Virus record (IMG/VR): IMGVR_UViG_2585427776_000015
Location: 1 to 8,058 of that record
DNA length: 8,058 nucleotides
From: a virus
Lineage: Duplodnaviria; Heunggongvirae; Uroviricota; Caudoviricetes
Reading direction: 5' to 3' (one strand)
The notes beneath the pieces were generated by a model. That model searched no databases and had not been told where the DNA came from. It saw only the letters and a program-made list of their open reading frames with translations. A program made the position numbers and the translations under genes. Every line of letters starts with the position of its first letter. The first letter of the stretch is position 1. Positions 1 through 8,058 of the stretch are shown one piece after another.

Positions 1-544
1 ATGGAAGTCAACAAAAAGCAGCTGGCTGACATTTTCGGTGCGAGTATCCGTACCATTCAGAACTGGCAGGAACAGGGAATGCCCGTTCTGCGAGGCGGTG
101 GCAAGGGTAATGAGGTGCTTTATGACTCTGCCGCCGTTATAAAATGGTATGCCGAAAGGGATGCTGAAATTGAGAACGAAAAGCTGCGCCGGGAGGTTGA
201 AGAACTGCGGCAGTCCAGCGAGGCAGATCTCCAGCCAGGGACTATTGAGTACGAACGCCATCGACTTACGCGTGCGCAGGCCGACGCACAGGAACTGAAG
301 AATGCCAGAGACTCCGCTGAAGTGGTGGAAACCGCATTCTGTACTTTCGTGTTGTCGCGGATCGCAGGTGAAATTGCCAGTATTCTCGACGGGATCCCCC
401 TGTCGGTGCAGCGGCGTTTTCCGGAACTGGAAAACCGACATGTTGATTTCCTGAAACGGGATATCATCAAAGCCATGAACAAAGCAGCCGCGCTGGATGA
501 ACTGATACCTTACCGAAATCGGTACGGATACCGCGAAAGAGCAG

Positions 545-552
<8 letters not shown>
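1..552 (+). CDS. nu1: Phage terminase small subunit, lambda gpNu1-like; last ~10 residues diverge (deletion junction)
   Basis: 183-aa ORF; first ~170 aa (MEVNKKQLADIFGASIRTIQNWQEQGMPV...KAMNKAAALDELIP) match lambda Nu1 as I recall it, including the N-terminal HTH region. The tail (YRNRYGYRERADL) is not Nu1-like. ATG is at window position 1. Confidence 0.8.
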
Positions 553-1748
<1,196 letters not shown>

Positions 1749-1759
1749 TGAGCCGCTGA

Positions 1760-2227
1760 TGCTTGAACCCGCCTATTGCACCACCAGATATTCCGGCAGG
1801 CTTCGTGGCTGTTTTCAACAGTGATGAGGCATCGTGGCATCTCGTTGAAGACCATCGGGGTAAAACGGTTTATGACGTGGCTTCCGGCGACGCGTTATTT
1901 ATTTCTGAACTCGGTCCGTTACCGGAAAATGTTACCTGGTTATCCCCGGAAGGGGAGTTTCAGAAGTGGAACGGCACAGCCTGGGTGAAGGATACGGAAG
2001 CAGAAAAACTGTTCCGGATCCGGGAGGCGGAAGAAACAAAAAACAGCCTGATGCAGGTAGCCAGTGAGCATATTGCGCCGCTTCAGGATGCTGCAGATCT
2101 GGAAATCGCAACGGAGGAAGAAACCTCGTTGCTTGAAGCCTGGAAGAAGTATCGGGTGTTGCTGAATCGTGTTGATACATCAACTGCACCTGATATTGAG
2201 TGGCCCGCAATCCCTGTTATGGAATAA
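1760..2227 (+). pseudogene. tfa: Tail fiber assembly protein (Tfa) C-terminal fragment with no credible native start
   Basis: Translation ...[88 protein letters not shown]...[11 protein letters not shown] matches the C-terminal ~150 aa of lambda Tfa from memory. The frame opens just after a stop at 1757-1759, and the only in-frame start is a TTG at 1763 with no RBS. Confidence 0.75.
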
Positions 2228-2587
2228 TAGTTTTGTGATATGCCGCAGAAACGTTATATGCAATAACGTGCTGCGGTTGGCTGATGTACTTTCGAGAGTG
2301 TATTGAATAATTTCCAACCGTCATTAATTTTATTTATTTTTTGTATGAGAGGATTTGAACCTCCGAGCCTCGACACCTTATGACAACGCGATATTGCCTT
2401 GATGACCGCCATGTGCCAAAATAACCAATTGATAAATAAGTTGATTTTAATTGGTTGGAAGCAAGTCAGGTCAAATTCAGCATTCCGCTCTCTGTATCGG
2501 ATAGTTAAATTTTTCTATAACTGATAGTAATATGTTAAAACTCACACAGATAAATTATCATTGCTCAACAAGTATAATGGAGTTCCC
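2228..2587 (+). promoter_or_regulatory. Non-coding, AT-rich leader and putative promoter region of the McrB-like operon; contains two palindromes
   Basis: 360 bp with no ORF. Interrupted palindrome at 2243-2276 (ccgcagaaacgttat / ataacgtgctgcgg). Inverted repeat AACCAATT (2423-2430) / AATTGGTT (2449-2456) around two direct TTGAT. GGAG at 2579-2582 sits 5 nt before GTG 2588. I cannot place the -35/-10 boxes reliably. Confidence 0.3.
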
Positions 2588-4543
2588 GTGGATACAGCAG
2601 AACATGATGGCAAGTTTGCTTGGGCTAGTTTTTATGAGGCTTTTGCCAACGCGTTACTGACTTGGCGAAATCGTAGAGATGAATTAGTCAAAGGTATTCA
2701 TCTAATTGCCCCGGGTGTGGAAGGAATGTCCCATCTGCAGGACAAATCTATTATGGGAGAGATCTTTCCCTTAAAAGACATTTGTCCGTTTACTACTATG
2801 GGCTTGTTCAATCGTAACTTGACCGACAGCAATCGCAAAATTATTGCTGCCAAGCTAGCGAATTTGTTGGGCGTGAACGAACCGATTCCTGACTCCTTTG
2901 CCGGAATCCCTCTGTTGAATAACCAAAAATCTTGGTTCTTTGGTTATGAAAAGTCACGCGACCCTAATGACATTGAATGCTTGTGGGAAATGTTCTCACA
3001 GGCAATGACCTTTGCGGATAACCAGAATACTAACTCTGCAGACTTCACTGCCGCATATGACATCGCTTCTACAGTAATGAATGTCGGTTGGAATCTCACC
3101 ATGGGGTTGTACTGGACCCGTCCTTGGTTCTACCCCACTTTAGATAGCCAGTCGCAGTATTACATTCAGACAGTGTTAAACATTAAGATCATTAAAAACG
3201 GGGCAAAAGGTCGCTGTAGTGGACAAAGTTACCTGAGTCTTATGCGGGCGCTGAACGAGGTCTTTACCCAACCAAACTATCCGGTTCATTCTTTCCCAGA
3301 ACTTTCCTTATCAGCGTGGAATACAGATCTTAGCCAGTCTAAAGATGAGGTGGCAAATAGAACGTGGAAAGCCTCTTTACTGAATAAAATTAAGGCGTTA
3401 TGCCTGAAAAAAAATGGCCCTTATTTCACTGCTTCGGAGTTGGAAGAAAACTACTTGGACGTTTTCAAGGTAGAGCATCCTGAGAGCAAAACTGTTACAA
3501 GCTCAATCTACTTTTATCTACAGAAACTATGCAATGATGATGAGTTAAAGTCCCTCGAGTCCGGAAATTATGAATACCTGAATTTTGAGAAAAACGAATC
3601 CCAGACGATAACTGAGGAAACTGTCGAAGAGAGTGCGCTGTCGCCAAAACTCACCCACGTTCCTTATGACATCAGTCATCTGGTGCAGGATGGCTGTTTC
3701 TTGGAAGAGGCTAAGATCCAACTCACACTTCAGCGCCTGATCGACAAGAAAAACCTGATATTACAAGGACCACCCGGAACTGGAAAAACTTGGTTAGCGC
3801 GACGTCTGGCGTACTGCTTGATGGGAGAAAAAGCACCTGAGCGTATTAGCGCGGTGCAATTTCACCCGAACCTCTCTTACGAAGACTTTATTCGCGGCTG
3901 GCGTCCAGGTAAAGAAGGGCAATTGACGCTAATTGATGGACCTTTTGTAAATGCAATCAAAACTGCAGTCAATAATCCTACCTCGAAATATGTGGTGATA
4001 ATTGAAGAGATTAATCGTGGCAATCCGGCGCAAATCTTCGGTGAAACACTCACGTTGATGGAAGCAGATAAACGCACGCCGACTGAGGCATTATCTCTTT
4101 CCTATCCTAAAAATGCTGATGAAAAAATATACATTCCTGAGAATCTATATATCATCGGTACGATGAATATTGCAGACCGCTCACTCGCACTACTTGACCT
4201 AGCGCTGCGCCGTCGTTTCGCGTTTATCGATCTAAAGCCAGCTTTTAATGACGCGTGGAGAAACTGGGTAAATTATAATTACGCAATTGATTTTGACATG
4301 TTAGCATTCATCAAATCTCGACTGACGGTATTAAACGATATGCTGGCAAAAGATGTTACCTTAGGACCACAGTTTTGTATCGGTCACAGCTATGTCACCC
4401 CAGCTATCGGCCAAAAAATCAACGATGCCCAGGCTTGGTATGAACAAGTCGTTGATACAGAGATCTGCCCTTTGCTCGCCGAATATTGGTTCGATGCTCC
4501 AAATAAAGTCGATGAAGCCAGAAAAGTGTTATTAGCAAAATGA
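2588..4543 (+). CDS. McrB-family AAA+ GTPase with an N-terminal ~380-390 aa region of unknown family (Type IV restriction motor / specificity subunit homolog)
   Basis: C-terminal ~270 aa carry Walker A GPPGTGKT (3766-3789), Walker B-like VVIIEEINR (3993-4019), the McrB signature MNxxDRS (MNIADRS, 4163-4183) and RRRF, and align throughout with E. coli McrB from memory (ILQGPPGVGKTFVARRLAY..., YIIGLMNTADRSLAVVDYALRRRF). The N-terminal region shows no similarity I can recognise. The open frame begins at TTG 2561 (no RBS); GTG 2588 is preferred because of the GGAG 5 nt upstream; the first in-frame ATG is about codon 56. Confidence 0.85.
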   Translation: MDTAEHDGKFAWASFYEAFANALLTWRNRRDELVKGIHLIAPGVEGMSHLQDKSIMGEIFPLKDICPFTTMGLFNRNLTDSNRKIIAAKLANLLGVNEPIPDSFAGIPLLNNQKSWFFGYEKSRDPNDIECLWEMFSQAMTFADNQNTNSADFTAAYDIASTVMNVGWNLTMGLYWTRPWFYPTLDSQSQYYIQTVLNIKIIKNGAKGRCSGQSYLSLMRALNEVFTQPNYPVHSFPELSLSAWNTDLSQSKDEVANRTWKASLLNKIKALCLKKNGPYFTASELEENYLDVFKVEHPESKTVTSSIYFYLQKLCNDDELKSLESGNYEYLNFEKNESQTITEETVEESALSPKLTHVPYDISHLVQDGCFLEEAKIQLTLQRLIDKKNLILQGPPGTGKTWLARRLAYCLMGEKAPERISAVQFHPNLSYEDFIRGWRPGKEGQLTLIDGPFVNAIKTAVNNPTSKYVVIIEEINRGNPAQIFGETLTLMEADKRTPTEALSLSYPKNADEKIYIPENLYIIGTMNIADRSLALLDLALRRRFAFIDLKPAFNDAWRNWVNYNYAIDFDMLAFIKSRLTVLNDMLAKDVTLGPQFCIGHSYVTPAIGQKINDAQAWYEQVVDTEICPLLAEYWFDAPNKVDEARKVLLAK

Positions 4544-5661
4544 CGACAATAACCGGGAGTGAGCAACATACAGCATCACGTATTCCCATGCGAAATATCT
4601 GGATGCTGATGCTGTACGCTTCAGATCTGTTTCGCCAGTTAGGGCGCAATCAGATCGCAGTAGAAGATAACCCAGCAGAAATCCCCGACCTGGTGGCGAC
4701 AATCCTCCTTCATGAGATTACGCTGCGCCGACGTCGCAATTTAAATATGGGATACCAAACTTGTCATGCGGCCCTGAACCGGGTGAGAGGGCGCATTGAC
4801 ATACTGTATACTGCCAGTCATCAACTGCTGGAACGGGGACAGGTTGCCTGCCATTTTCAAGACATAACCCTCAACACCCCCCGAAATCGCTATGTTCGCT
4901 GTGCGTTAGAACGTCTGGCCTCAATCATAGTGAAACCGTCTTTGGCGGCAGATTGCCATTTTATGGCAATATCACTTCGCCGTGAGGGGATAAATGGAGG
5001 ATATCCTGCCCCCCACGAATTACCCTCAGTGTGGCGTTTTGGACGCCATGATGCCGCAGATAAACCGATGGTCGATGCCGCACGATTAGCTTTTGAACTG
5101 CTGATGCCGACCGAAGATCAAGGCCAATATCTTTTACCTGCGCCCTCAAATAACCTTTACTGGATGAGAAGACTATTTGAAAAAGGTATCGCTGGCTTAT
5201 ATCGTGTACACCTTGACAAAACAACTTGGCAGGTCTCTGCAGGGAAAGAGCTGAAATGGGCGTTGAGCGATCAAAGTGCAGGTAGTGCAGAGATTTTCCC
5301 GACAATGAAGTCAGACATTATTCTGGAACACAAGACTGCCCAGCGGCGTATTATTATCGATACCAAATTTAATTCGATTCTGACAAAGGGTTGGCATCGG
5401 GAGCAATCACTACGTAATGGCTATATTTATCAGCTATATACCTACCTTAGAACACAGGAGAACAAGACGGATCCGCTTTCGCTCAATGCCGCTGGTCTTC
5501 TACTTCATCCAGCTGTTGGCTATATGCTTAATGAGTATGTTGTCACTCAGGGACATAAGATCCATTTTGCTACAGTAGATATGACGGTAGATGCTAAAGC
5601 AATTAAAAAACAATTGCTGGCAATAGCCCATGATTGTGCAGGAGTCGCGGTTGATGACTAA
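4540..5661 (+). CDS. McrC-family PD-(D/E)xK endonuclease subunit (373 aa), translationally coupled to the McrB-like gene
   Basis: Start ATG overlaps the upstream stop (ATGA at 4540-4543). N-terminus IPMRNIWMLMLYAS resembles E. coli McrC IPVRNIYYMLTYAW. Nuclease core SDIILEHK...RRIIIDTKFNS (D259 at 5314-5316; D274-T-K276 at 5359-5367) parallels McrC ETDITI...ILIVDAKYY. The following NGYIYQLYTYL resembles McrC QNLYQLMNYL. Confidence 0.85.
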   Translation: MTTITGSEQHTASRIPMRNIWMLMLYASDLFRQLGRNQIAVEDNPAEIPDLVATILLHEITLRRRRNLNMGYQTCHAALNRVRGRIDILYTASHQLLERGQVACHFQDITLNTPRNRYVRCALERLASIIVKPSLAADCHFMAISLRREGINGGYPAPHELPSVWRFGRHDAADKPMVDAARLAFELLMPTEDQGQYLLPAPSNNLYWMRRLFEKGIAGLYRVHLDKTTWQVSAGKELKWALSDQSAGSAEIFPTMKSDIILEHKTAQRRIIIDTKFNSILTKGWHREQSLRNGYIYQLYTYLRTQENKTDPLSLNAAGLLLHPAVGYMLNEYVVTQGHKIHFATVDMTVDAKAIKKQLLAIAHDCAGVAVDD

Positions 5662-6017
5662 CCATCCTATAGGGCACTGGCTGTAATATAATCAATAGTT
5701 TCAATTAAGTAGCTGTTATCCGTGCTTAGTCATCATATGACGCACCACGGTCTAATTTTCCTGCTCATACATTGATATATCCTTGTCGTGCCCGGAAAGT
5801 CGCAGTCCACTATGAGGTATACCGATTGCCAGCACCAAAAGCTTCTTTGTGATTATTATATCGGGGAATGCCTATTTTTTTAGTGACAATATCAGATAGC
5901 AATTAATAAGCGGTGCCGGTAATGGATGTTATGTTTAATGTATAGACACAGCCATCATAAACTAAACGTCTGTTGTTCGCTCATAACCGACATTTATCTC
6001 AGTTATGGAGGATAATT

Positions 6018-6098
6018 ATGTATGCAGATAATGGGGCAGACAGTCGTGGAGTAAACAAGGTTTTGCACTGCTTGGCGGCATCGTTATCTTATTTTTAA
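6018..6098 (+). CDS. Hypothetical 26-aa small protein (MYADNGADSRGVNKVLHCLAASLSYF), speculative
   Basis: Consensus Shine-Dalgarno GGAGG (6007-6011) sits 6 nt upstream of the ATG, inside otherwise ORF-free AT-rich DNA. The C-terminal half is hydrophobic. There is no homology evidence; the call rests on the RBS only. Confidence 0.2.
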   Translation: MYADNGADSRGVNKVLHCLAASLSYF

Positions 6099-6141
6099 TT
6101 ATGTGCCTCTTAACATAAGTTGGGACAAAACAGAGACACAT

Positions 6142-6173
6142 AAGGTCTCACAAAGGTCTGCAAGGCCTCACAT
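6142..6173. repeat. Three tandem imperfect ~10-bp direct repeats (AAGGTCTCACA / AAGGTCTGCA / AGGCCTCACA)
   Basis: Read directly from the sequence at 6142-6152, 6153-6162 and 6163-6172. Spacing is one helical turn, as expected for an iterated protein-binding site. Confidence 0.5.
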
Positions 6174-6361
6174 GTATTGAGATGTTAATAAAATGTAGAC
6201 TTGTAATTTGGATATAAATGGTAGAGAAAACCTTTCCCCAAAATAAAAACGAACGTCAATGAAATCAAACGGTTGAATAAAGTTAATTTTGGCTAATAAA
6301 AAGACAATAAAATAATTTTTATCATTAAATATCAATGACTTGAATTCATGGTTTTTATATA

Positions 6362-6526
6362 CTGCTGCGCCATATGGGTTGGACTGAAGCGGCTGACCTG
6401 ATTGTTAAAGGTATGGAAGGCGCAATCAATGCCAAGACCGTAACTTATGACTTCGAACGTCTGATGGAAGGCGCTAAGCTGCTGAAATGTTCAGAGTTTG
6501 GTGAAGCGATCATCGAAAACATGTAA
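6362..6526 (+). pseudogene. icdC: icd 3' fragment: last 54 codons of isocitrate dehydrogenase plus stop, the duplicated attachment region (icdC-like)
   Basis: In-frame translation [54 protein letters not shown] matches the Icd C-terminus from memory. Homology begins abruptly at 6362, after AT-rich non-icd DNA. 165 bp, no start codon and no upstream icd sequence. Confidence 0.85.
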
Positions 6527-6549
6527 TCTCTCCATGTGTTAAATATTGA

Positions 6550-6581
6550 AACGGGCGTATAACACGCCCGTTGTTTTATTT
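6550..6581 (+). terminator. Rho-independent terminator downstream of the icd 3' fragment
   Basis: 9-bp GC-rich stem (6550-6558 / 6564-6572, aacgggcgt..acgcccgtt) with a 5-nt loop, followed by a T-rich run (gttttattta), 24 nt after the icd stop. Confidence 0.6.
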
Positions 6582-6628
6582 ATGTGGATATTATTAATAG
6601 CATATCGAGCATATTTATATGAAGCCCA

Positions 6629-6952
6629 TTACTTGAGCCCATATGGGCATATTTTTATAATGCAACTATTATGTAAACATTTATTTGTTATTTTGCTTTC
6701 TCCTGGAGGACACTCTTGACTGCTTTTGAGTAAACTCCATAAATCCTTGTTGAATGGTGCGATGTGATAAATAGTAATAGGATATTCTTTATCCTTAAGG
6801 ATAATACCAGACTTAACCGGTGTAAATATACTGCCAGGAGGGAGAAATATAGTAGATTGATACCAGATGATCATTTTCATATTACCCCATATGGCTGAAA
6901 AAGATATACCACATGTAGGTTGAATTACCGTGTCAATTACTATCCACTTCAT
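6629..6952 (-). CDS. iraM: Anti-adaptor protein IraM-like (RssB inhibitor that stabilises RpoS), 107 aa
   Basis: 107-aa [46 protein letters not shown]... matches IraM (YcgW) in length and N-terminus as I recall it. Position and orientation, immediately after icdC and on the opposite strand, match the E. coli K-12 order icdC-iraM-ycgX. AT-rich gene with a long AT-rich upstream region. Confidence 0.7.
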
Positions 6953-7029
6953 TTGTTATGTCTTATCCCACGGTATTTAATATGGTTCATTAGGATGTTT
7001 ATTTCTTGATTTTGCATATGAGTATATTA

Positions 7030-7039
7030 CCCCCCCCCC
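7030..7039. repeat. C10 homopolymer followed by an A7 run, in the iraM-like upstream region
   Basis: Read directly: attaCCCCCCCCCCtcAAAAAAAt. It lies 78-87 bp upstream of the iraM-like start codon on the opposite strand. Confidence 0.9.
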
Positions 7040-7415
7040 TCAAAAAAATAAATTAATTAAAATGATGGCTTATATAAAATAAAATTTAAAGCAAGGAATC
7101 TCAATGGATGTTAAACAAAATGAGATTTTGTGAAAGCAATAAATTATTGACTTCGTTTTAGATTTGTTTAGCTATAATGTTATACATTCAAATGACTGAA
7201 CATCCTGTAATTAAAACATAGCCTTTATGCTACTTTGTGCCAATTTGCTAAACATTATGGTTGCCTTTTTATATAACGATAATAATGAATATAAGCATGA
7301 CATGAGAATAAGGTTTCAATTTTTGAGTTATATAGGAATGATTTAACCTGTTCCTGGCTAAAATACATATAACCGGATGATGACTAAACCAAAATACATG
7401 TGCGTTAAGTATTGA

Positions 7416-7447
7416 AACGGACGTGTGGCACGGCCGTTGTTTTTATA
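7416..7447 (+). terminator. Second, degenerate copy of the icd-terminator element: hairpin plus T-run with no + strand gene upstream
   Basis: Stem 7416-7425 / 7429-7438 (aacggacgtg..cacggccgtt, one mismatch) followed by gtttttata. The flanks (catgtgcgttaagtattgaaacgg...) are homologous to 6536-6585 (catgtgttaaatattgaaacgg...). Confidence 0.35.
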
Positions 7448-7653
7448 AATATGTTAACCGTTATAAAATAACGTATCAAAAGTCAAGTGATCACATTTCA
7501 AATATCAAGTTGATAGTATTAGTCTGGTGATTATTTATGGGTGACAATAAAAAGACAGTATTAATCATCCATAGAGATAGTCTCTGCACTTTTATTTCCA
7601 TTATGCTAATGCCTTACTGAATTATGAAGCATTTCTTAAGTATCCAACTTTAG

Positions 7654-8058
7654 CTAGATTAATGGTTTATTATTTTCTACATCTTCAATATATAAAAGCG
7701 TATTATCAATGGCGTAGTAACTGCGTTTGTTATGATTAACATCAGTAACCCACCGGAAAACGCCCGCGCCTGCCAGTGTTGAACAGTATTCCCGAAATGT
7801 AGATTTTCCGCAAATATGAAGCAATGCGGCCTCTTTTATTTTAGCAGGGTTCTTGGTCGTACTAACTTTTAACAGGTTCCTGGTTCCTCTTAATAACAAA
7901 ACCGTATCATCGTGAGTAATAATTCTGATGTTATCCGTAGCCAGATAATAAATGTAATGTGCAATACGGTGATGTTTTAATTCTGAATAAAACCAGGAGA
8001 AGTTTTGCTCTTTTCTCACTTGCTCAAACATCTTTTGAAAAACAACGACCTGATCCAT
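7654..8058 (-). CDS. ycgX: DUF1398-family protein, YcgX-like (134 aa); start codon at the window edge
   Basis: 134-aa ORF MDQVVVFQKMFEQVRKEQNFSWFYSELKHHRIAHYIYYLATDN...AGAGVFRWVTDV... resembles the E. coli YcgX/YbcV/YdfO (DUF1398) family as I recall it. The position next to iraM matches the K-12 order. ATG occupies 8056-8058, so the true start may lie beyond the window. Confidence 0.5.
   Translation of the reverse strand: MDQVVVFQKMFEQVRKEQNFSWFYSELKHHRIAHYIYYLATDNIRIITHDDTVLLLRGTRNLLKVSTTKNPAKIKEAALLHICGKSTFREYCSTLAGAGVFRWVTDVNHNKRSYYAIDNTLLYIEDVENNKPLI

What the first reader, a model, noticed from the sequence alone, without database searches (positions are those of the whole stretch)
7021..7050. 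C10/A7 homopolymer pair in the upstream region of the iraM-like gene: possible slipped-strand switch or assembly-error hotspot
A run of ten C followed by seven A lies 78-96 bp upstream of the iraM-like start codon on the opposite strand, within the likely promoter or 5' UTR. Homopolymers of this length are prone to slipped-strand mispairing, so length changes could alter promoter spacing and modulate an RpoS-stabilising anti-adaptor. It is also the kind of tract where sequencing errors accumulate.
Basis: partly seen in the sequence, partly recalled or inferred. Interest (0 to 1): 0.35.

Follow-up and report, generated by a model that had tools for sequence, protein, structure and literature searches.

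The report
Hypervariable poly-C tract upstream of iraM
The C10 run upstream of the E. coli RpoS-stabiliser gene iraM is a real slippage-prone microsatellite, 6 to 13 C long among otherwise identical strains, but nothing found here shows that its length switches or tunes the gene.

Summary
C10 lies at 7030-7039 and A7 at 7042-7048, which is 78-96 nt upstream of the ATG of an iraM identical to the K-12 gene. C10 is far beyond chance; A7 is not.

Tract length varies among relatives. In 5,426 complete E. coli genomes, the K-12-type flank carries C6 (3), C7 (~140), C8 (~600, including MG1655), C9 (~270), C10 (~125), C11 (~55), C12 (25) and C13 (at least 2). One identical 1,050-bp flank haplotype carries C7 to C10. 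Lineages with an interrupted run (CCCCTTC) are almost invariant.

Most of the variation is real. Clones and repeat assemblies agree, short-read metagenome contigs show it too, DH5alpha and DHB4 have C7, and a published MG1655 evolution line fixed +C at this site.

A switch is not supported. The conserved PhoP-box-like sites and the best -10 candidate lie upstream, so the tract is probably in the 5' leader (the start site was not found in accessible papers). Predicted SD/AUG accessibility does not change from G4 to G13. PhoP control is reported in K-12 (C8 in MG1655) and in Shigella flexneri, whose one genome read here has the interrupted allele.

Verdict: an ordinary, probably near-neutral mononucleotide microsatellite.

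The parts
7030..7039 (.). Uninterrupted poly(C) run, C10 on the + strand and G10 on the iraM sense strand. This is the hypervariable mononucleotide microsatellite.
   Evidence: Searches give the coordinates. Searches show C6-C13 among genomes with identical flanks. One search shows four lengths on one 1,050-bp haplotype. One search reports +C at MG1655 position 1,212,080 in a laboratory-evolved population.
7042..7048 (.). A7 run (T7 on the iraM sense strand), separated from the C run by TC. It is not hypervariable and is expected by chance in this AT-rich spacer.
   Evidence: One search gives the coordinates. In some searches, A7 is constant in the K-12-type sequences apart from one with a substitution (L058); other lineages have A5-A8. 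One search shows that 45% of shuffles have an A/T run of 7 or more.
6629..6952 (-). iraM (ycgW), the anti-adaptor that protects RpoS from RssB/ClpXP. It is the gene downstream of the tract.
   Evidence: One search lists the ORF. Searches give the RefSeq annotation WP_001295666.1, 'anti-adapter protein IraM'.
7101..7117 (-). PhoP-box-like direct repeat TGTTTA-ACATC-CATTGA in the iraM orientation (3 mismatches to KGTTTA-N5-KGTTTA). Candidate promoter-proximal PhoP site. Inferred, not demonstrated.
   Evidence: One search found the site. In one search it is identical in the K-12-type and B1-type sequences, and the first half-site is kept in the most divergent alleles. Such matches are not enriched over shuffles (38 against 26.8 +/- 5.5).
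7154..7170 (+). Second PhoP-box-like site, CGTTTTAGATTTGTTTA (2 mismatches), in the opposite orientation. It is invariant in all nine sequences aligned. Candidate distal PhoP site. Inferred.
   Evidence: A paper quoted says the iraM promoter has two PhoP sites, but it gives no coordinates.
7083..7088 (-). Candidate -10 hexamer TAAATT, 12 nt downstream of the PhoP-box-like site and conserved in all aligned alleles. It would place the start site near 7070-7076 and the tract about +28..+47 in a leader of about 120 nt. Inferred.
   Evidence: Sequence and alignment. The consensus scan gives an overlapping prediction: TTGAGA-17-TATTTT at 7104-7076 on the - strand.
7211..7255 (-). ymgK small ORF (14 aa), upstream of and co-oriented with iraM. 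Context only.
   Evidence: Searches give the annotation; one search gives the translation MFSKLAQSSIKAMF*.

Best explanation
The tract is a mononucleotide microsatellite. It is an uninterrupted poly(dC).poly(dG) run that, in the K-12-type (probably phylogroup A) allele of the iraM upstream region, has passed the length at which replication slippage becomes frequent. It gains and loses single C:G pairs by slipped-strand mispairing that escapes mismatch repair.

The rate is far above the local substitution rate, so strains with identical flanks differ. It is low enough that a clone keeps one length over years.

The run probably arose when a point change removed the T interruption from a CCCCCTCC-type sequence. 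The interrupted allele is exactly as long as the modal C8 allele.

The tract most likely lies in the transcribed 5' leader of iraM, downstream of a PhoP-dependent promoter. Its length variation is most likely neutral or nearly so for iraM expression. It is not a programmed on/off switch.

Shown: the polymorphism, its dependence on an uninterrupted run, clonal stability, and change in laboratory lineages. Inferred: the slippage mechanism, the position relative to the transcription start, the origin by loss of the interruption, and neutrality.
For: Length spectrum. Exact-match queries of 71-77 nt against 5,426 complete genomes gave raw >=99% counts of C6 20, C7 157, C8 618, C9 285, C10 146, C11 78 and C12 51. 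About 17-26 of each count are partial matches; the listed full-length perfect rows number 3 for C6 and 25 for C12. The distribution is unimodal and right-skewed, as expected for stepwise slippage. C13 was verified in strain L73.

Rate well above substitution. Thirteen sequences share one identical 1,050-bp flank haplotype and carry C7, C8, C9 and C10. The window equals TW11681 over 4000-7100 except for C10 against C9.

Dependence on an uninterrupted run. CCCCTTC-A6 is exact in 1,615 of 1,922 matching records. It is invariant across 14 distinct flank haplotypes, differing by up to 45 positions, among the loci read. The adjacent A7 does not vary in the K-12-type group.

Real rather than artefact. 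Repeat assemblies and clonal sets agree:
- E. coli HS, two records, both C11.
- Ec-050, the parent record plus five derivatives labelled T0, T5 and T20, all C11.
- Four MRSN isolates, all C11.
- ESY001-003 and two WCHEC isolates, all C12.
- MRE162 sub-strains from the UK, France and Norway, same aligned span.
Metagenome contigs also show C7 (3), C8 (10), C9 (8) and C10 (1).

Change in the laboratory. MG1655 has C8, while DH5alpha and DHB4 have C7. NEB 5-alpha, HST04, C3026 and ER1709 have C7 by aligned span. A silver-adapted MG1655 population carries '+C, 1,212,080, intergenic (-77/+623) iraM/ycgX' at frequency 1.0.

Against a switch.
- No acceptable -35/-10 pair brackets the tract.
- The conserved PhoP-box-like sites and TAAATT lie upstream.
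- The spacer next to the tract tolerates several bp of indels, including a 7-bp insertion, in other lineages.
- Predicted SD and AUG accessibility is 0.68 and 0.92 for every length from G4 to G13.
- iraM is PhoP-induced in E. coli K-12 (MG1655 has C8). ycgW is PhoPQ-dependent in S. flexneri 301 (ratio 0.09). The S. flexneri genome read here has C4TTC.
Against: - The transcription start site and the footprinted PhoP sites could not be read. Eguchi 2011 and Battesti 2012 are not held, so 'leader' is an inference. PhoP-box-like matches are not enriched over shuffles.
- No expression data exist for different tract lengths, so neutrality is not shown.
- The counts come from assemblies. Some long-read assemblies may miscount homopolymers.
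- The collection is biased towards laboratory K-12 and clinical clones, so allele frequencies are not population frequencies.
- The S. flexneri genome I read (SFBU0723) is not strain 301, which was used in the expression study.
- No phylogeny was built, so the number of independent changes is not known.
Confidence: 0.7

Rival explanations
1. Tuning knob or contingency locus. Tract length changes iraM expression, either by altering the spacing or helical phase between PhoP or H-NS sites and the core promoter, or by changing a G-rich leader. Slippage would then give lineages heritable, reversible differences in IraM and therefore in RpoS level.
For: The tract is hypermutable. It sits 78-87 nt from the ATG of a dose-sensitive regulator: iraM is the most PhoQ-responsive PhoP target, and its over-expression costs fitness through RpoS. 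A third PhoP-box-like match (6996-7012, +) lies between the tract and the ATG. If that were a real site, the tract would separate two PhoP sites. A TAATAT hexamer directly follows the G run on the sense strand. One evolved population fixed +C.
Against: - No -35-like hexamer lies 16-18 nt upstream of TAATAT or TATACT for any observed length (my reading of the sequence; one search lists no such promoter).
- The 6996-7012 match is altered in the B1-type allele (TGTTCA...TTATTT), the allele carried by the S. flexneri genome read here. PhoPQ dependence is reported for S. flexneri 301.
- Other lineages tolerate several bp of indels, including a 7-bp insertion, at the same place.
- Lengths are stable within clones.
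- The length distribution is smooth and unimodal, without preferred phases.
- Predicted RNA structure is unaffected.
- The +C line also carried strongly selected mutations (cusS, ompR, rho, fur), so hitch-hiking is the simpler reading.
Confidence: 0.17
2. Artefact. The apparent length variation, including the window's C10, comes from homopolymer miscalls in sequencing or assembly rather than from biology.
For: Homopolymers of 8 or more are a known weak point of long-read and some short-read pipelines (general knowledge). The window differs from its nearest relative over 3.1 kb only by one C. One record labelled MG1655 (NZ_CP010442.1) appears to have C7 while another MG1655 record has C8.
Against: - Independent assemblies of the same strain or clone agree.
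- Three separately sequenced DH5alpha-type genomes all give C7.
- Metagenome contigs show the same spread.
- An Illumina resequencing study called +C at frequency 1.0 in one population only.
- The spread covers eight lengths, well beyond +/-1 errors.
Confidence: 0.05
3. Functional G-rich element whose exact length does not matter. Examples would be a rigid G:C block that interrupts H-NS spreading over this AT-rich region, or a leader element bound by a factor. The run would be kept by selection while its length drifts.
For: The spacer is H-NS-associated and 29.5% G+C. Every lineage keeps a C-rich patch (4-6 C with T interruptions) at this position.
Against: The patch is the least conserved part of the upstream region in sequence and length. 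No known motif or RNA family matches it. No data link it to H-NS.
Confidence: 0.08

Closest known systems
Polymorphic mononucleotide simple-sequence repeats in non-coding E. coli DNA, as surveyed and used for strain typing by Gur-Arie et al. 2000 and Diamant et al. 2004. Cited from memory; neither paper could be opened here. I recall, unverified, that a locus named ycgW, the old name of iraM, was among them.
   Same: Intergenic homopolymer of 7 or more bases, length-polymorphic between strains with conserved flanks, changing in single-base steps, with no demonstrated function.
   Different: Nothing essential. The present data add the scale (C6-C13 over about 1,250 complete genomes), the contrast with interrupted alleles, and the changes inside the K-12 laboratory pedigree.
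Promoter homopolymer phase variation: the Bordetella pertussis fim2/fim3 C-stretch between the BvgA site and the -10, the Neisseria meningitidis porA poly-G and opc poly-C between -35 and -10, and the Mycoplasma hyorhinis vlp poly-A (established literature, from memory).
   Same: A long G:C homopolymer upstream of a regulated gene, near binding sites for a two-component response regulator, and changing length by slippage.
   Different: In those systems the tract lies inside the core promoter or between activator site and -10, switching is frequent within a culture, and length gives on/off or graded expression. Here no core promoter brackets the tract, the likely promoter is upstream of it, clones are length-stable, and no expression effect is known.
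Homopolymer indel hotspots in E. coli mutation-accumulation and laboratory-evolution experiments, where indel rate rises steeply with run length and mismatch repair suppresses it (for example Lee et al. 2012, from memory).
   Same: Single-base gain or loss in a run of 8 or more. One such event at this very site is listed in a breseq table.
   Different: Those studies describe the genome-wide rule. This is one of the longer G:C runs, in a natural-population setting.

Membership tests
Neutral mononucleotide microsatellite (slippage-prone SSR) | Uninterrupted homopolymer above the slippage threshold (about 7-8 nt) | tested here: met
   C10 at 7030-7039; C6-C13 in relatives.
Neutral mononucleotide microsatellite (slippage-prone SSR) | Length polymorphism in single-unit steps among sequences whose flanks are identical | tested here: met
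   One 1,050-bp haplotype carries C7, C8, C9 and C10. The window and TW11681 are identical over 3.1 kb except C10 against C9.
Neutral mononucleotide microsatellite (slippage-prone SSR) | Interrupted versions of the same tract are stable | tested here: met
   CCCCTTC-A6 is exact in 1,615 of 1,922 records and invariant across 14 distinct flank haplotypes.
Neutral mononucleotide microsatellite (slippage-prone SSR) | No effect of length on phenotype | not testable with these tools
   Indirect evidence only: predicted SD/AUG accessibility is unchanged, and PhoP control is reported in K-12 and in S. flexneri 301, whose species representative read here has the C4TTC allele.
Simple-sequence contingency locus (promoter phase variation) | Hypermutable repeat tract | tested here: met
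   As above.
Simple-sequence contingency locus (promoter phase variation) | Tract located between -35 and -10, or between activator site and -10, so that length sets promoter geometry | tested here: inconclusive
   No sigma-70-like pair brackets it. The conserved PhoP-box-like sites and TAAATT lie upstream, which would put the tract in the leader.
Simple-sequence contingency locus (promoter phase variation) | High-frequency, reversible switching within a clonal population | tested here: inconclusive
   Assemblies of clonal sets share one length, which argues against very high rates. Consensus assemblies cannot show minority variants; read-level data are needed.
Simple-sequence contingency locus (promoter phase variation) | Different lengths give different expression states | not testable with these tools
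   The accessible literature holds no expression data by tract length.
Sequencing or assembly artefact | Length calls disagree between independent assemblies of one strain and do not follow clonal relationships | tested here: not met
   HS twice C11, six Ec-050 records C11, four MRSN isolates C11, three DH5alpha-type genomes C7, three MRE162 sub-strains with equal span. One possible exception is an 'MG1655' record with C7.

The most novel reading that the evidence does not exclude
The poly-C tract could be an evolutionary tuning knob for the general stress response. Single-base slippage in the iraM promoter or leader would shift PhoP- or H-NS-controlled IraM output. That would give commensal K-12-type E. 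coli lineages a reversible, mutation-cheap way to reset RpoS levels, alongside the well-known rpoS polymorphism. It would be a rare case of a simple-sequence contingency locus in E. coli.
Probability: 0.12. Interest if true: 0.6.

Novelty: new member of a known kind. Interest (0 to 1): 0.27.

Why it matters
As it stands the tract has three practical uses.
- It is a caution for variant calling, because +/-1 C calls at iraM -77 are to be expected.
- It is a useful fast-evolving marker within K-12-type (probably phylogroup A) E. coli and within K-12 laboratory pedigrees.
- It is a clean natural example that removing an interruption turns a stable C-rich patch into a microsatellite.

It would matter more if length affected IraM. 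iraM is the most PhoQ-responsive PhoP target, and its over-expression is costly through RpoS. A heritable, reversible modifier of its output would link slippage to variation in the general stress response. That is testable with a handful of isogenic reporters.

Tried and rejected
- **Start site and PhoP footprints.** Eguchi 2011 (PMC3067605) and Battesti 2012 (PMC3347191) are not held. Other iraM papers give no coordinates.
- **SSR-typing literature.** Gur-Arie 2000 and Diamant 2004 are not held, and keyword searches found nothing. My recollection that ycgW was a typing locus stays unverified.
- **A wasted literature search.** A six-term search with min_terms=2 returned only unrelated papers, and 'iraM' plus 'homopolymer' returned only polymer chemistry.
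- **Promoter-spacer idea.** I looked for a -35 hexamer 16-18 nt upstream of TAATAT (7029-7024) or TATACT for G7-G13. Only T-rich 3-of-6 matches turned up, and the scan tool reports no promoter spanning the tract. I rejected it as the leading model.
- **RNA-switch idea.** I folded the putative leader with G4-G13. The G run pairs only weakly (0.27-0.50), and SD/AUG accessibility is constant. Rejected.
- **Known RNA families.** Only sub-threshold chance hits.
- **PhoP-box scan.** Matches are not enriched over shuffles, so the sites rest on conservation and geometry only.
- **Identity-band counts.** The >=99% band over-counts by about 17-26 partial matches (seen). The counts were corrected, not discarded.
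- **Aligned spans in the 3.1-kb search.** These are only approximate for tract length, because other indels occur. For example NZ_CP053787.1 has a span of 3,102 yet C12.

Full report
**1. Where we are**

The window is the icd/e14 attachment region of E. coli.
- Positions 1-2230 hold fragments of a degraded lambdoid prophage.
- Positions 2561-5661 hold an McrB-like AAA ATPase and McrC.
- Positions 6374-6526 hold the displaced icd 3' end, followed by its terminator.
- iraM is at 6629-6952 on the - strand. Its product is identical to K-12 IraM, WP_001295666.1.
- The small ORFs ymgK (7211-7255) and ymgL (7491-7601) follow, then ycgX (7654-8058).

The iraM-ycgX spacer is 29.5% G+C. A genomic SELEX study lists it as H-NS-associated.

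**2. The observation**

The + strand reads GAGTATATTA-C10-TC-A7-TAAATT. C10 is at 7030-7039 and A7 at 7042-7048.

C10 is the only G/C run longer than 6 in the window. Its iid expectation is 0.004 for the window and about 8e-6 for the spacer, and it appeared in none of 20,000 shuffles. A7 is what an AT-rich spacer gives by chance: 0.61 such runs are expected, and 45% of shuffles have one. The notable object is therefore the C run alone.

**3. Is the length variable among relatives?**

Yes, strikingly. The 248 bp upstream of iraM occur in 3,707 of 5,426 complete E. coli genomes. An alignment of nine representatives shows identical flanks carrying C7, C8 (K-12 MG1655), C9 and C10. More distant alleles carry interrupted versions: CCCCCTC, CCCCTTC and CTCCCC.

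I then queried the collection with 71-77-nt sequences that differ only in the number of C. At that length one mismatch or gap drops identity below 99%.

| Allele | Raw >=99% count | Corrected estimate |
|---|---|---|
| C6 | 20 | 3 |
| C7 | 157 | ~140 |
| C8 | 618 | ~600 |
| C9 | 285 | ~270 |
| C10 | 146 | ~125 |
| C11 | 78 | ~55 (at least 40 listed) |
| C12 | 51 | 25 |
| C13 | not queried | at least 2 |

The row listings show that about 17-26 of each raw count are partial perfect matches. Only 3 full-length perfect rows were listed for C6 and 25 for C12, which is the basis for the corrected column. One C13 genome, strain L73, was verified directly. The distribution is unimodal and right-skewed, as a stepwise slippage process would give.

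**4. Rate relative to substitutions, and the role of interruptions**

I read 77 copies of the region: 63 metagenome contigs, 3 loci from species-representative genomes, 10 loci from complete genomes, and the window. Thirteen of these copies share one identical 1,050-bp flank haplotype and carry C7, C8, C9 and C10. Counting the metagenome contigs alone, the K-12-type flank shows C7 (3), C8 (10), C9 (8) and C10 (1), plus two copies of CCCCCTCC.

The interrupted allele behaves differently. CCCCTTC-A6 is invariant across 14 distinct flank haplotypes that differ by up to 45 positions. It is exact in 1,615 of 1,922 matching complete-genome records. The neighbouring A7 does not vary within the K-12-type group.

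Hypervariability is thus a property of the uninterrupted G:C run, as expected for slipped-strand mispairing. CCCCCTCC is exactly as long as the modal C8. That suggests (an inference) that the microsatellite was born when a single T-to-C change removed the interruption.

**5. Real variation or sequencing error?**

Mostly real. Independent assemblies and clonal sets agree.
- E. coli HS appears twice, both C11.
- The Ec-050 parent record and five derivatives labelled T0, T5 and T20 are all C11.
- Four MRSN isolates are C11.
- ESY001-003 and two WCHEC isolates are C12.
- MRE162 sub-strains kept in the UK, France and Norway have the same aligned span.

The tract also differs inside the K-12 laboratory pedigree. 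MG1655 has C8, while DH5alpha and DHB4 have C7 (verified). NEB 5-alpha, HST04, C3026 and ER1709 have C7 by aligned span.

A published resequencing table of silver-adapted MG1655 populations lists '+C, 1,212,080, intergenic (-77/+623), iraM/ycgX, frequency 1.000'. Position -77 is the base next to the run, which is where an aligner left-places an insertion. The text says that population SAM7 uniquely fixed three intergenic mutations.

The caveat stands for any single genome. Over window positions 4000-7100, the closest complete genome (TW11681) differs from the window only in this tract, C9 against C10. The window's own count could be a true +1 or an error.

**6. Where is the tract relative to the iraM promoter?**

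I could not open the papers that mapped PhoP binding or H-NS control. What follows is inference.

iraM is strongly PhoP-dependent. One study measured about 20-fold induction by osmotic upshift. Another reports 12-fold induction in an mgrB deletion and about 1,000-fold in a hyperactive PhoQ mutant. That paper also states that the promoter has two PhoP sites, one strong and one weak, without giving coordinates.

A PhoP-box scan gave three candidates in the spacer:
- 7117-7101 (-), TGTTTA-ACATC-CATTGA;
- 7154-7170 (+), CGTTTTAGATTTGTTTA;
- 6996-7012 (+), TGTTTATTTCTTGATTT.

Such matches are not enriched over shuffles (38 against 26.8 +/- 5.5). The first two are unchanged between the K-12-type and the B1-type allele, the allele carried by the S. 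flexneri genome read here. The third is altered there, to TGTTCA...TTATTT.

Twelve nt downstream of the first box lies TAAATT (7088-7083), which is conserved in all aligned alleles. This is the usual geometry of PhoP-activated promoters (box, about 12 nt, then -10; from memory of Kato 1999 and Minagawa 2003). The consensus scan gives an overlapping prediction, TTGAGA-17-TATTTT at 7104-7076.

Either reading puts the start near 7070-7076. The tract would then lie at about +28..+47 of a leader of roughly 120 nt.

The alternative is that the G run forms the spacer of a promoter using TAATAT (7029-7024). That has no acceptable -35 at any observed length (my reading of the sequence; one search lists no such promoter).

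**7. Would length matter in a leader?**

I folded the putative leader with G4 to G13. The predicted unpaired probability of the SD region stays at 0.68 and of the AUG at 0.92 for every length. The G run itself is only weakly paired, 0.27-0.50. No Rfam family matches the region.

Other lineages tolerate several bp of indels, including a 7-bp insertion, right next to the tract. PhoPQ dependence of ycgW (iraM) is also reported for Shigella flexneri 301, with a delta-phoPQ/wild-type ratio of 0.09. The S. flexneri genome I read carries the short interrupted allele. A long run is therefore not needed for PhoP control, and exact spacing here seems unconstrained.

**8. Conclusion**

The tract is a genuine, unusually long and highly polymorphic mononucleotide microsatellite. 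It lies in the probable 5' leader of iraM. It changes by slippage quickly enough to distinguish strains with identical flanks and even laboratory sub-lines. It is stable within clones.

I found no evidence that it acts as a switch. Its 'slippage-prone' reading is supported, its 'promoter-spacing switch' reading is not, and its 'error hotspot' caveat applies to individual calls but not to the pattern.

The closest known kind is the polymorphic intergenic mononucleotide SSR of E. coli. From memory, such loci were used for strain typing and may have included a locus named ycgW; I could not verify this.

The tract resembles promoter homopolymer phase variation (Bordetella fim, Neisseria porA and opc) only in being a G:C run near a response-regulator-controlled promoter. 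The defining features of that class were either inconclusive or untestable here.

The residual interesting possibility is a tuning knob for IraM and RpoS. I rate it at about 0.12, and a small set of isogenic reporters would test it directly.

Noticed in passing
window 6535-6577 and 7401-7443: Two copies (84% identical, 866 bp apart) of the icd 3' terminator region bracket iraM and ymgK. The second copy also scores as a terminator-like hairpin. This looks like the scar of an older insertion at the icd 3' end, so iraM itself may sit on an ancient integrated element flanked by att-like duplications.
   Followed up: partly
window 2561-5661 (+): A 660-aa McrB-like AAA ATPase and a 373-aa McrC sit next to the icd remnant, in the place that mcrA occupies in the K-12 e14 element. 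289 complete genomes hold at least 80% of window 4000-7100, which runs from the 3' end of the ATPase gene through mcrC to the iraM upstream region.
   Followed up: partly
window 1-2230: Heavily deleted lambdoid prophage. Identified from memory of phage lambda proteins: Nu1-like small terminase (1-552), a short large-terminase C-terminal remnant (680-898), gpW-like (895-1101), the N-terminal 216 aa of a portal (1098-1748), joined directly to a tail-fibre assembly gene (1763-2227). TW11681 matches the window only from about 1774 onward and has different phage genes upstream.
   Followed up: no
L010 and L011 (Shigella flexneri SFBU0723, CP182557.1): The same chromosome yielded two loci holding the iraM upstream region. 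They are 98.4% identical over 5.6 kb (80 mismatches, 10 gaps), which suggests a diverged duplication of the icd-iraM region in that genome.
   Followed up: no
summary (region equivalent to window 6953-7200): Eight of the 3,728 places matching the iraM upstream region lie on records classed as plasmids. One search found five for the B1-type allele. I did not examine them.
   Followed up: no
L007/L008, aligned next to window ~7055: The most divergent iraM upstream alleles carry a 7-bp insertion (AATTAAA or AATCAAA) directly beside the tract, which looks like a duplication of the neighbouring AATTAAA. The segment between the tract and the putative promoter is therefore indel-tolerant.
   Followed up: partly
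NZ_CP010442.1 (record labelled K-12 MG1655), equivalent of window 7030-7039: By aligned span this 'MG1655' record has C7, whereas another MG1655 record (NZ_CP184745.1) has C8. This is either a sub-line difference or a homopolymer miscall.
   Followed up: no
window 7600-7628 (-): The promoter-like site TTCATA-17-CATAAT, just downstream of ycgX, matches the 'constitutive promoter' that a genomic SELEX study assigns to the iraM-ycgX spacer. It lies about 650 bp upstream of iraM and more plausibly serves ymgL.
   Followed up: no
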